DNA from: Eledone cirrhosa
Taxonomy: Eukaryota
Reading direction: 5' to 3'
Length of the DNA: 64,000 nucleotides
NCBI GenBank assembly: GCA_964016885.1
Contig: OZ024747.1
Span: forward strand, 82,584,001-82,648,000
In this document: piece by piece, positions 2,067 through 60,559 of the stretch
Layout: the number at the start of each line of letters is the position of its first letter
How positions within the stretch are numbered: position 1 is the stretch's first letter
Notes under the pieces: model-generated
Told to the model about the DNA's origin: nothing
The model's input: the letters and a program-made list of their open reading frames with translations, nothing else
The model's database searches: none
Made by a program: the position numbers and the translations under genes

Positions 2067-2264
2067 CCAGGGAATGTAACTTGGAGTTACTGTAGGTTCA
2101 CCCAGGTGAGCATTCGATGTTTAGGTTGACTTCAGTGTCGAGGTGTAGAGCTAGACAGAGTGTATTATAGTGAAATAAGATAACAAGGGCGATTGGTTAC
2201 TCCTAATAAACGTTAAACGTAATGAAGGAGTAACCAATCGTCCTTGTTATCTTATTTCACTATA
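2067..2264 (-). mobile_element. (TA)n-embedded fold-back insert, probable PLE 3' fragment with inverted end
   Basis: 39-bp inverted arms 2166-2204 / 2226-2264 (1 mismatch), ~100-bp unpaired tail to the left, (TA)n on both sides. Confidence 0.6.
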
Positions 2265-2324
2265 TATATATATATATATATATATATATATATATATATA
2301 TATATATATATATATATATATATT

Positions 2325-2723
2325 TAAAAAAATAGAGGTGTAACACAGGAGTTGTGATATATTAGTGAAAGGAAAAGAAAATGCTGGCAAATTTTTCCCA
2401 GTGAAAAATAGTTTAATTAGGAATAAGTATAAATTAGTAATAAGTATTAGTTAGTATTCAGTTTTAGTTTTAAGTTTTTACCGGTTGCGCATTTCTAATG
2501 CTTTTCAAAAATAATTTTGAGATAGAGCGCTCGTGATGTTTGATTAGAGCAAACATCACGAGCGCTCTATCTCAAAATTATTTTTGAAAAGCATTAGAAA
2601 TGCGCAACCGGTAAAAACTTAAACTAAAACTGAATACTAACCAATACTTATTACTAATTTATACTTATTCCTAATTAAACTATTTTTCACTGAGAAAAAT
2701 TTGTCAGCATTTTCTTTTCCTTT
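2325..2723 (-). mobile_element. (TA)n-embedded long palindrome, probable PLE 3' fragment with inverted end
   Basis: ~175-bp near-perfect arms 2368-2542 / 2550-2723, 7-nt loop ATTAGAG, ~40-bp unpaired tail, (TA)n flanks. Confidence 0.65.
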
Positions 2724-3227
2724 TATATATATATATATATATATATATATATAATTTAGGGAACAAGTCAGGCCGACGAAAGTAAATTAGTCTAATTCAT
2801 ATAATCGCCTCCCTACTATGGTTTTAAGAATAAAAAGAAACAGTATTAATTATTTCATATCATTGAAGCAACCAATATTGGAAGAACATTTATTCTTTCA
2901 TCAGGGTAGAAAATCTTTGCAATAGGAGGAGGTATTGATCATAAAATATACTGACCATTTTAATGTCGAAGACAGCGTGGTGTCCAACACATTGCTTTGT
3001 TGAACTATGAATGAACAAAGCTTTCTATATATTTTAGGACAATACGATAGGCTTATAATGACGCTAAAAATAGCATTTAAAAAAACCGTTTAAAACATTT
3101 CTACAATGAATGAGTAGTATATATGAATTAAAAAGTTATTTGGCTCTAATACTTAGATATCTCAATGAATAGATAAAATATACAGTTAAAATATCACAAT
3201 CAGAGATGTAATTTAACATATCAGGCG

Positions 3228-3345
3228 TTATATATATAAACAGGAATGTATATAAGCATATGTATATAAACAGGCATGTATATAAAGGTATGTATGTAAA
3301 CAGGCATGTATATAAAGATATGTATATAAAGAGATTGTATATATA
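3228..3345. repeat. 30-bp-period minisatellite (~4 units, TATATAAACAGGCATGTATATAAAGGTATG-like)
   Basis: ATAAACAGG-type motif recurs near 3236, 3266, 3296 and 3326. Confidence 0.75.
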
Positions 3346-3804
3346 TAATGAGATGCAGCAATCAGGAAAACCACAGAAACCTCTCATATACCATAATTCT
3401 TGAACGAAACGTTCTAGCATGGATTAAAACGCCATTTAAAAACTACACCAAACTACCACCTGAAGGTAAGAATATATTACACAAATACCGAAATTAAAGA
3501 CCATCTCCTCAATATGAAACCACAAATCTGCAAGTTAATGTAATACATATTCCAATTCCATCATAAACAGTTACACAAGACACACAAGTACCACACATTC
3601 TCTCTGTGGAAGCATTTTCATAGCAACATACGAGCTAAATATGAACACAAATGCAGAACTGTGGCATTAAACTAAAATAAATGTTAAAGGTCGCAGAAAG
3701 AAATTTCCAGTTAAAAGTTCTATTTATGCCATCCGGAGATGATTAATTTCTTCAGTTAAAGTATCATTCCCATGATAACCTTCTCCTTACTACAAAGGCT
3801 CAGC

Positions 3805-4028
3805 AATATAAGCCGATGGAGCCTACACATGGTAGCTCAACCTGTTAGAGAACTAAAAAATCCCTTCAAAATGCAATATATTAAACTGCCATATAAAACC
3901 ATCATATTGAAAAAGGGAAGAGCACATTGACTCGCGTAATTTTAGTAAAAGAAAAATAAATGAGATAGTCACGACAGGAGCAGCTTTTATCGTGGGTTAA
4001 CTCAATCAGGGCTGATCTGGCGCTAAAA
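3805..4028 (-). mobile_element. Old dispersed repeat family B; related diverged copies near 9960-10060, 13905-14055, 14570-14640, 26490-26665, 52632-52830
   Basis: Shared motifs GTTTAGCCC..., GAGATTTGGCTGCTATTTCTAGCAGGT and GACCA..GTAGAGGCTCC across copies. Confidence 0.5.
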
Positions 4029-4216
4029 TTAAACGTCACTACCATTTACTTCATTTAAAGATGAGATAGAAATGGTAAAGAACATAGGAATATTGTTCGT
4101 AAATAAATATGAAAACAAAAATAAGGACATATGGGTAAGATCCTTAATACAAAGATTAATATTCCTTAAAAGAATTTCAAAGAAAAGCTCTTGACTTTAT
4201 ATATAGAGAGATATTG

Positions 4217-57390: not shown

Positions 57391-57750
57391 GTATATTAGT
57401 TTGATTTGATCGATAACAAAACATTTCTGCATATTTATGTGAAAATCTGTGTATATCACATATATCTGTCTGACGTGTATTTAGGTCAAGATATATGTAA
57501 TACATACGTACCTATATATAAATATATATATATATATATATATATATATATATATATATATATATATATATATATATATATATATATATATATATATATA
57601 TATATATATATATGTATGTATATTAGTTTGATTTGATCGATAACAAAACATTTCTGCATATTTATGTGAAAATCTGTGTATATCACATATATCTGTCTGA
57701 CGTGTATTTAGGTCAAGATATATGTGATACATACGTACCTATATATAAAT
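57391..57750. repeat. Tandem duplication of a ~133-bp unit separated by (TA)n
   Basis: 57391-57523 and 57618-57750 nearly identical. Confidence 0.9.
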
Positions 57751-58074
57751 ATATATATATATATGGTATATATTTGTATACATATATATGCACAATATTC
57801 ACAACATATTAGACATGGTATCTAATATAAGGTTCCGTAACTACACAAACACCTTTCAAAATATGCTTGAATTTACCATTTATAATTCAGTATTAAGAAA
57901 TCTAATAACGAATATATATATTCTCTAATGAAACTAAATCCTTTGCGCATAAGAAAATAGCACACATAAACTTAAGTAATAATATAATCTGAAACGATGA
58001 TAAAAATAGATTATAAACTTACAATAATAAGAATTAGTGTGGTAAACATTGTAACCTACAAACTATAATTAAAT

Positions 58075-58257
58075 AATTGTTTCTACTTTTTGGCACAAGG
58101 CCAGCAATTATCGCAGTGTATTACAGGTACTTTATTTTATCGACCCCGTAAGGATGAAAGGCAAAGTTAACCTTGGCGGGATTTGAACTCAGTCTGTAAA
58201 GAGACTTAACTGTGCTAGAAAGCATGGCGTCCGACCCTCTACCGATACTGCCAATCC
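58075..58257 (-). mobile_element. SINE-A copy with TSD
   Basis: AACTATAATTAAATAAT on both sides. Confidence 0.9.
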
Positions 58258-60114
58258 AACTATAATTAAATAATAATATATAATGTTTAGCTACAAAAGA
58301 GGTGTATGTCACAGTTGAACACCATTTGGAAAATATTGTTTCTAATCCCATACGTAGATTAATCTATAGAACAACATAAACAACATAAACAAAGGGAAAA
58401 TAGCAACACATAAAAATGACACCATATTTAGTCGATTTAATATAGTTAACGTTTGTCTCTAAATTTCTCCTCAAACTTCGTTAAAATGTATATAACACAT
58501 GTCATGCATGCTAGGATATACCTCCTTTTTGACAAAGAATCTATTTTGGTCAATAAACTGTATCCAATGAGTTCTTTTAATATAAATATGGGTTTGTACA
58601 TAGTTCTGAGATATGCGAGCTTATATTGAACTTATATATTCTAGATAAATATTTACCATGATGTACTTTGATATATATATATGTACGTATTTTGACTGGC
58701 ATATATACCACAATGTATTTTAGCCGATATATAGCTATAACGCTGATGGATTAGCTACATCTAAGTATGAGAAAGGAAATACCCTAGATACATTTAAAAG
58801 GTGCTTTATTAAAATTTTCGATAATTTCACCCAAATAGTGTTAAAACCAATTTATGCATCATTAGTTTCAATTTAACCACAAGCTTGCATAAAATCCTTA
58901 TGAAATTTGATGGAAATTTTACATACATTAGATACGATTCTACCACCCATATTTGATTTCTTTTTAGACATAACAATAGTAACAAGTGTAATTTAAGAAG
59001 TATACCTTCAATAGTGGAGCCCACATCATAATAAAGCACATATAATCTAAGAAAACCAAACTATGAAGGCATGTCACAAAACGATCCGATTCACAGCTCT
59101 TTTTTTTTCTTTAAATTTGCTAAGAACCTCCTGGTCATAATTGATAAGAATTTCACTATAAATTAATACAGAAAATTATTTCATAAAGAATCTTAAACGA
59201 GTCACATTTGCACTAATATTAAGATAATCTAAAAAAAAATGCAAAACGTTCTAAATTATTTGTGGTTAACAATAGAAATATTAACACATGCCTACTTAAT
59301 CAGACTTAATGCAATGCTGTAGCAATCATATAGGAAGGAGAAGGCACCTCCACCAAACCAAACTTTGACGTAGCAAGTAGATATATTAAAAAAATGTCTG
59401 ACGGTAAATTTGAACAACGGTATGTCAATCATATTTCTTCTTTTAGGTGGGAGGAATGTAAGGGAATTTTTAAATTACATCTAGCACTTGAAAGAACATG
59501 CTACAGATTTCATATTCAAGTAGTAGACACTGAAGGAATGTATACTTTATATGTACAGAAACGGAAGCTCTAAAATATGTACAGCTCTAAAGAGCCTCAT
59601 ACTTAAAAACCTTCAGAATTCTGCCAATTGTCTTAATGCGAGCTCTGAATATTTTTTCAACTTGTCACCACTTAGATAAGTATCTAAATGAAATATCAGA
59701 ATACAATATCACCACCAGACTAAACGTGTCTGCAATCACTCTTCAATTCATACATTTTACATAGTCGGGCAATTCCTGTTCTTCCTCTTTTAATATCAAC
59801 AAGCCCTTTATATGCACCGGATTAATGATATAAATACATTTATGTAAATATACAAGTGTGTGTATAAAATGTGATTAAACGCTTATATATAAAACAGCGT
59901 CTTATTATTAAACTTTTAATTCCACAGGAACGCCATTTTTCTTTTTCACTCATTTCCTTACAATTTCATTTTTACATTTTCTTTCTCTATTTTCTCTCTG
60001 TATTTTCTTGTTCTCACACCACCCCCTCGGTCAATCTCATTAGGTTCAATATGAATATATATATATATATATATATATATATATATATATATATATATAT
60101 ATATATATATATAT

Positions 60115-60308
60115 ATAGGAACAAGTAAGACCCCGACGGCTGAGCTCAAGCCGTTTCGACGGCTAATTCTGTACAGAATTTGCCGTCGAAACGGCTTGAG
60201 CTCAGCCGTCGGGGTCTTACTTGTTCCTATTACCCACTCTACTACCCTAAGTATTGAGTATTTTGGTGCGTTATGGTCCACCTGGTTCCTTACCACATTT
60301 CCTTCGTT
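60115..60308 (+). mobile_element. (TA)n-embedded fold-back insert: 116-bp loopless palindrome plus 78-bp tail
   Basis: Centre CTGT|ACAG at 60172/60173, one T.T mismatch; tail matches 50328-50408 in reverse and 33711-33751. Confidence 0.82.
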
Positions 60309-60389
60309 ATATATATATATATATATATATATATATATATATATATATATATATATATATATATATATATATATATATATATATATATT

Positions 60390-60559
60390 CATTAGCGGAA
60401 CCTCAGCTCGTAATGTCCATTACAAGCTGAGGTTCCGCTAAGGTGAAACAATTGTTCTCGGTATGGTGAACTAACTGTTGTGTAACCACTTCTACCTAAC
60501 TCGTCCCATGGACTGAGTGCTCTACCACTACGGATATTACCTTCCAGTGTTCTACCACT
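60390..60559 (+). mobile_element. (TA)n-embedded insert: 24-bp hairpin, hammerhead 3' half and tail
   Basis: Arms 60392-60415 / 60418-60441, then GAAA-CAATTG-TT at 60445-60456. Confidence 0.65.

What the first reader, a model, noticed from the sequence alone, without database searches (positions are those of the whole stretch)
2067..60559. Recurrent 'palindrome + unpaired tail' architecture, with turning points often at the ribozyme
Seen: about ten inserts are inverted duplications (2166-2264, 2368-2723, 16971-17335, 48438-49300, 50409-50538, 54678-55105, 56117-56388, 56751-56830, 60115-60230, 60392-60441). Usually one arm continues as an unpaired tail. Where a hammerhead is recognisable, the fold-back point often lies on it: at the first base of stem I (54892), in the stem II loop (56308), just 5' of GAAA (50481, 60173, 60418), or at the predicted cleavage site (56804). 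Established: PLE insertions often have an inverted partial terminal repeat at the 5' end. Inference: the RT stalls or switches template at the ribozyme, so the RNA fold dictates the DNA palindrome.
Basis: partly seen in the sequence, partly recalled or inferred. Interest (0 to 1): 0.75.

Follow-up and report, generated by a model that had tools for sequence, protein, structure and literature searches.

The report
Penelope palindromes turn at RNA start
The mirror-image inserts are real end pieces of Penelope-like jumping genes sitting in TA repeats, and their turning points pile up at one base per family that is likely the capped start of the element's RNA rather than a ribozyme roadblock, which would explain how this class builds its known head-to-head ends.

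Summary
All 10 palindromes are real. They are 3' ends of Penelope-like elements (Hydra clade and Neptune-type) in (TA)n: one arm carries the tail, the other starts at a fixed inner site, and the arms meet 5'-to-5'. That layout is published. The turning points are not random. In five families sampled genome-wide, arm ends cluster at one site, 11-49 times the rate elsewhere. That site is the first base of hammerhead stem I in two families. It lies inside loop II in one, 50-80 nt upstream of the ribozyme in one, and in a family with no ribozyme found. Cleavage site and GAAA are not enriched. The site is a pyrimidine-purine initiator-like step and often carries an extra G (14:1 against 6:30, p 4e-7), the mark of a copied cap. 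Either arm can be the longer. Best reading: both DNA ends prime reverse transcription, likely on one RNA, and run off its start. Strand-change joints at this site occur in Illumina reads of other samples. Earlier notes of this scan reached the same reading on other pieces of this genome. No RNA data tested it.

The parts
2067..2260 (.). PLE-type stub, family a: tail 2067-2165, inverted arms 2166-2260; both arms stop short of the family's ribozyme-like region
   Evidence: clade not tested
2324..2723 (.). Family B (Neptune-type) stub: tail 2324-2367; arms end 9 nt and 1 nt short of the predicted start site; no hammerhead found
16968..17338 (.). Family c stub with U3-A8 hammerhead (core 17129, minus strand); tail-less arm runs 48 nt past the core, tail arm starts in stem II; tail displaced by a later insertion
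33646..33751 (.).
48317..48420 (-). Family D single-arm stub
48440..49297 (.). Family E stub: tail 48440-48495; hammerhead in both arms (cores 48689 minus, 49112 plus); tail-less arm starts at 49032 in the predicted promoter zone, 80 nt upstream of the core
49330..49457 (.). Further small palindrome with tail, family not assigned
50329..50538 (.). Family A (Hydra clade) stub: tail 50329-50408; both arms end at the predicted +1 (50466 minus, 50481 plus) with a 14-nt filler resembling nearby sequence
54678..55239 (.). Family H stub: perfect 428-nt palindrome centred on 54891/54892 (first base of stem I, one base upstream of the predicted +1); core 54900, GAAA 55021, predicted cut 55032/55033; tail 55106-55239
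56110..56476 (.). Family I stub: tail arm starts at 56197 (the A of TTTCACTG in a longer copy), core 56288; short arm ends in loop II (equivalent of 56308)
56682..56828 (.). Family J stub: tail 56682-56752; tail arm ends at the equivalent of 56804 (loop III), tail-less arm starts in stem II; predicted cut 56809/56810
60118..60307 (.). Family A stub (second subfamily): centre 60172/60173 within about 1-4 nt of the predicted +1; tail 60231-60307
60389..60558 (.). Family L stub: junction at the start of stem I (60415-60418), core 60427, GAAA 60445; tail 60442-60558

Best explanation
The inserts are 3' end stubs of Penelope-like elements joined head to head inside (TA)n, likely made when both ends of one cut in the TA repeat prime reverse transcription and both copies run off the predicted capped 5' end of a short RNA started in the pLTR. 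Steps: (1) the 3' pLTR promoter starts RNA at an initiator-like base (inferred); (2) the endonuclease opens (TA)n on both strands (inferred; shown in vitro for a lizard element); (3) one end primes at the tail end and the other at a fixed inner site (both fixed ends shown in sequence); (4) both cDNAs end at +1, often with a C opposite the cap (pile-up and extra base shown; cap inferred); (5) the two ends are joined with small trimming, microhomology or filler (junctions shown). Probably one RNA serves both primers: the tail-primed copy either stops at the inner primer (inversion without overlap) or passes it (palindrome). The ribozyme coincides with the turning point only where its stem I begins at +1.
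For: Polarity from ORFs: tail = RNA 3' end. Hot spots in tail-only searches: A2 20 of 30 tail arms, B 14 of 30, J 17 of 30, H 4 of 29, E 7 of 29; 11-49 times the rate elsewhere. Sites read TTT/TTC-A-GT, ATC-A-GA, TTC-A-TT and GTC-G-GC; TTC-A-CT and GTT-A-GT in two more families. Extra G: 14 C:1 T at +1 against 6:30 elsewhere, p 4e-7; 8 of 9 after dropping junctions that the partner arm explains, p 1e-3. Tail-less arm at least 20 nt longer in 15 of 87 two-arm copies, tail arm longer in 7. Arms share subfamily alleles: A2 14:3, H 12:1, against 0.21 and 0.15 across loci. 4 of 40 unselected two-arm A inserts have tail arms ending at 70-79, just before the inner start (P about 0.007). Six strand-change joints end at +1 within 3 nt, five of them in raw Illumina reads. 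PMC11167929: two start sites bracket the tail, both strands are cut and extended, ribozyme cleavage is not needed.
Against: No RNA 5' ends were observed; +1 is inferred. Test windows were chosen after seeing the data. Breakpoints were hand-curated. The cap signal is strong only in family A (J 5 of 8 with ambiguity, H 2 of 5, B 1 of 1, D 3 of 6). Family E is broad and has an unexplained second cluster at 102-110. In J (1:5) and E (2:4) the arms mostly disagree at variable sites. Arm identity could also come from gene conversion or two RNAs from one donor. 11 of 29 H copies read through the site.
Confidence: 0.7

Rival explanations
1. RT stalls or switches template at the folded hammerhead, so the RNA fold sets the palindrome.
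For: Hot spot at the start of stem I in H and J and in 6 of 11 unselected symmetric cases. In H, 5 of 32 arm ends lie at 209-228, around stem III and GAAA. Single arms end in loop II (56308) or stem II (17187).
Against: Equal or stronger hot spots without a ribozyme (B) or upstream of it (E; 5 of 11 at -68 to -94). Cleavage site: 0, 0 and 1 tail-arm ends in A2, H and E; GAAA: 0, 1, 0, 0. A stall does not predict an extra G.
Confidence: 0.08
2. One strand folds back and primes itself: a tail-primed cDNA hairpin, or self-priming of an antisense RNA as proposed in PMC3846280.
For: Arms share alleles; many junctions are near-perfect with short self-complementary centres.
Against: The tail-less arm is often the longer one (15 of 87, e.g. 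117 against 314 in L249). Inversions with no overlap exist (window 33646-33751, L049). A-runs or an extra G occur on either arm (L192, L005, L176). An antisense 3' end has no reason to sit on an initiator with an extra G.
Confidence: 0.1
3. The RNA 5' end is real but made by 5'-to-3' decay or processing that halts at a structure such as stem I, not by initiation.
For: Exact match to the first base of stem I across three covarying J subfamilies and in H.
Against: Pyrimidine-purine step at every site, extra G, promoter-like motifs beside the site in B and E (motif names recalled), and sites with no stem.
Confidence: 0.08
4. Palindromes are assembly or library fold-back artefacts, or later rearrangements of longer copies.
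For: The window's own junctions were not checked one by one in reads. Internal deletions in one arm occur (L176, L240, L248).
Against: Fixed family-specific ends, diverged arms, a different junction at most loci, and the same joints in Illumina reads of two other samples plus a loose inverted end in contigs of another organism.
Confidence: 0.03

Closest known systems
EN+ Penelope-like insertions with inverted 5'-truncated copy and one-sided tail (PMC8557442; PMC3846280; PMC2377424)
   Same: Head-to-head arms, tail on one side, hammerhead in the pLTR, (TA)n targets, start site inside the pLTR.
   Different: Here most inserts are stubs with no ORF, tails are about 30-135 nt rather than 30-40, and the junction maps to one base per family. 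PMC3846280 explains the palindromes by antisense self-priming.
Hydra clade PLEs, e.g. Hydra-1_Obim (PMC8557442 section 11 and supplement)
   Same: Family A ORFs show CxCX5C, no CCHH, CxxC before E, CxH after N, and (TA)n insertion.
   Different: Family A has a U3-A8 (8 of 15 long copies) or C3.A8 (7 of 15) core with a long stem II, and its hot spot lies in loop II.
PAc (Poseidon of Anolis) in vitro (PMC11167929)
   Same: Two RT start sites bracketing the tail, both strands cut and extended, uncleaved RNA used.
   Different: That work does not address the 5' junction or the inverted copy in the parts read.
L1 twin priming and cap-derived G (PMC4859970 passages)
   Same: Both target ends prime; 5' inversion; untemplated G at full-length 5' ends.
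   Different: L1 primes at poly(A) plus a variable inner site, with arms that barely overlap (recalled); here the inner site is fixed and the arms usually overlap fully.

Membership tests
EN+ Penelope-like elements | RT with C-terminal GIY-YIG endonuclease upstream of the terminal repeat | tested here: met
   Long copies of A, B and E. Pfam GIY-YIG and RVT_1 for B only, 2 of 7 proteins; A and E by motifs and published alignment rows.
EN+ Penelope-like elements | Same, for families H, I, J, L, a, c | not tested
   No ORF reached; assigned by architecture and hammerhead only.
EN+ Penelope-like elements | Inverted 5'-truncated copy with one-sided tail | tested here: met
EN+ Penelope-like elements | Hammerhead motif in the pLTR | tested here: met
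   E, H, I, J, L, c and variant A; not found in B
EN+ Penelope-like elements | RT phylogeny within the PLE clade | not tested
   No tree built
Hydra clade (family A) | CxCX5C linker, no CCHH, CxxC and CxH around E and N | tested here: met
   L261-L264 ORFs against section 11
Hydra clade (family A) | RWK and DKT motifs | not tested
   N-terminal part not recovered
Neptune (families B, E) | CX2-5CxxC linker and CCHH in the endonuclease | tested here: inconclusive
   Linker and cysteines seen by eye; Nematis not excluded without a tree
Active hammerhead ribozyme | Self-cleavage | not testable with these tools
   Stem I covaries in J (three complementary variants); activity untested. The Rfam scan listed no hammerhead among the 150 of 177 matches shown.
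Non-LTR retrozymes | Tandem monomers bounded by cleavage sites | tested here: not met
   Arms do not end at cleavage sites

The most novel reading that the evidence does not exclude
A Penelope RT dimer copies one capped pLTR transcript twice, from two fixed start sites on the two ends of one break, the second pass displacing the first. The palindrome centres therefore map PLE promoters base by base across the genome. Several families place hammerhead stem I at +1, so the ribozyme could cut the cap off these short RNAs and limit stub spread, while family A starts inside the ribozyme and escapes it.
Probability: 0.25. Interest if true: 0.75.

Novelty: new member of a known kind. Interest (0 to 1): 0.5.

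Why it matters
How PLEs make their inverted ends is stated as open in PMC8557442, and PMC3846280 offers antisense self-priming as an untested idea. The base-level pile-up, the extra G and the two-way asymmetry give a concrete rival that the existing in vitro system can test. The searches run listed no paper that maps PLE inversion junctions to start sites; subscription papers and bioRxiv supplements are outside that library. With about one such palindrome per 10 kb in the sampled 864 kb, they are also a large source of hairpin DNA and RNA in this genome.

Tried and rejected
Rfam scan: only microRNA-like matches to hairpins and microsatellites among the rows shown. Genome searches with the tails of I and L returned nothing, so these rest on copies in other loci. 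No RNA holder listed. RAD read depth was not used: most reads end at 1632, at an AATT that is probably the restriction cut. The depth profile on family E was too noisy to use. The first family A search included the junction and is biased; it was left out of the rate and cap tests. One search had wrong coordinates and gave nothing; replaced. A splice acceptor was rejected because arms start at the A of AG and sites in H, I and J have no AG. One inherited master palindrome was rejected because junctions differ between loci; family L is the exception, with one junction seen twice. Duplicates dropped before counts: L164, L202/L203 counted once, L269.

Full report
Observation. All 10 listed inverted duplications are present at or near the stated coordinates. 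Each has one arm ending in (TA)n and the other continuing as a tail to the next (TA)n; one tail is displaced by a later insertion. The window lies in a 3.0-Gb genome. In 800 kb of stretches taken without regard to content, plus the window, 90 of 547 TA-bounded segments carry an end-anchored inverted repeat. One 100-kb stretch had none (L081-L090).

Identity. Long copies carry broken PLE ORFs upstream of the tail, so the tail is the RNA 3' end and the arms meet 5'-to-5'. Family A fits the Hydra clade motifs. B gave Pfam RVT_1 and GIY-YIG hits; 5 of the 7 proteins scanned gave none. B and E look Neptune-like by eye. H, I, J, L, a and c are assigned by architecture only. The inverted truncated copy with a one-sided tail is described in PMC8557442 (passages, sections 10 and 11, two supplement look-ups), PMC3846280 (passages) and PMC2377424 (passages).

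Where the arms end. Five families were sampled with queries covering the tail and at most about 60 nt beyond it, mapped on real long copies and curated by hand. Tail-arm ends in the window around one site: A2 20 of 30, B 14 of 30, J 17 of 30, H 4 of 29 (10-nt windows), E 7 of 29 (25 nt). Rates are 49, 36, 11, 20 and 12 times those elsewhere, P 5e-27 to 6e-5. The windows were chosen after seeing the data; a hundredfold correction leaves all below 0.01. Ends within 3 nt of the cleavage site: 0 (A2), 0 (H), 1 (E); not testable in J. At GAAA: 0 (A2), 1 (H), 0 (J), 0 (E). The hot spot is the start of stem I in H and J, loop II in A, 50-80 nt upstream of the ribozyme in E, and in B no ribozyme was found within 1.1 kb. 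Among 11 symmetric hammerhead-bearing palindromes in the unselected set, 6 centre 3.5-8.5 nt upstream of the core, 5 centre 68-94 nt upstream, and none at GAAA or the cut. Nine asymmetric cases scatter, and one had its ribozyme outside the repeat.

What the site is. Longer copies show a pyrimidine-purine step at each site, mostly TCA or TTA with the A as last base copied. This resembles an initiator (consensus recalled; PMC3846280 names TCACT as initiator-like in a pLTR, and PMC8557442 places the Penelope start in the pLTR). In family A the base after +1 is C on the cDNA in 14 of 16 arms. Scoring C against T only, because A and G match native variants, gives 14:1 at +1 and 6:30 elsewhere (p 4e-7); 8 of 9 remain after dropping junctions that the partner arm explains. 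PMC4859970 (passages) takes such untemplated G as the mark of a copied cap in L1 and SVA. The signal is weaker in J (5 of 8), H (2 of 5), B (1 of 1) and D (3 of 6). In E the cluster lies between motifs that I recall as NRF1 and YY1 sites.

How the two arms arise. The tail-less arm is at least 20 nt longer in 15 of 87 two-arm copies and the tail arm in 7, so it is not simply a copy of the tail arm. Inversions without overlap exist, one in this window at 33646-33751. In 4 of 40 unselected two-arm A inserts the tail arm stops at 70-79, just before the inner start at 79 (P about 0.007), as expected if both primers sit on one RNA. Arms share subfamily alleles in A2 (14 against 3) and H (12 against 1), but not in J (1 against 5) or E (2 against 4); B had no variable site. 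PMC11167929 (parts 1-2 of 4 read) shows two RT start sites bracketing the tail, extension of both strands, a predicted dimer and no need for ribozyme cleavage.

Artefact check. On a long A copy, 9 of 13 listed joints change strand. Six run from 1545-1585 to 1636-1640 (+1 = 1639), five of them in raw Illumina reads of two other samples. Summed contig depth in X1 falls from 2.1 million to 0.3 million across the site, and another organism's contigs show a loose inverted end at 1643. The window's own junctions were not checked individually.

54892 is right. 56308 holds for one arm only. 50481 and 60173 are the family A +1 in loop II, 18 and 15 nt from the catalytic GAAA. 60418 is the start of stem I. 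56804 is 6 nt upstream of the cut given by the covarying J fold.

Verdict. A known architecture with a likely mechanism: twin priming and run-off at a capped start (0.7). Ribozyme stalling 0.08. Earlier notes of this scan reached the same reading on other pieces of this genome; I had written mine before opening them, and they are not independent support. bioRxiv 10.64898/2026.07.22.740005 (passages) added nothing on inversions; its supplements could not be seen.

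Noticed in passing
window 17335-17850: Insertion between the arm and tail of family c, with CTAG and a GC hairpin at one end, like a Helitron terminus (motif recalled); another copy in L263.
   Followed up: partly
window 16440-16970; L038-L039: PLE-like unit of about 480-530 nt in a head-to-tail array followed by an inverted copy.
   Followed up: partly
L012, L013, L021, L066, L097; window 17129; L139 flank: Hammerhead cores with U3-A8 in place of C3-G8 in several families; 7 of 15 long family A copies have a C3.A8 mismatch.
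   Followed up: partly
L192, L005, L180, L175: Runs of A at the cDNA ends of both arms, likely untemplated addition or slippage at the RNA end.
   Followed up: no
L266:2610-6465: The two arms of one family B insert hold different internal parts of the ORF.
   Followed up: no
L247: About 630 nt of GC-rich sequence, which I recall as large-subunit rRNA, lies between two arms that both end at the hot spot.
   Followed up: no
family E, 102-110 nt from the tail end: Second cluster of arm ends (5 of 29 tail arms) just past the query end; cause unknown.
   Followed up: no
window 5430-5557: Intact hammerhead in a single-arm stub; most copies of this family end at one site about 70 nt upstream of the core.
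   Followed up: partly
window 53160-54140, 50064-50250 and elsewhere: Abundant short repeat in both orientations (837 local hits), recalled as an octopod SINE; not tested.
   Followed up: no
window 39521-41248 (-): 575-codon frame with the C-terminal part of a non-LTR reverse transcriptase, by eye.
   Followed up: no
L081-L090: 100 kb with no TA-bounded palindrome, unlike the other sampled stretches.
   Followed up: no
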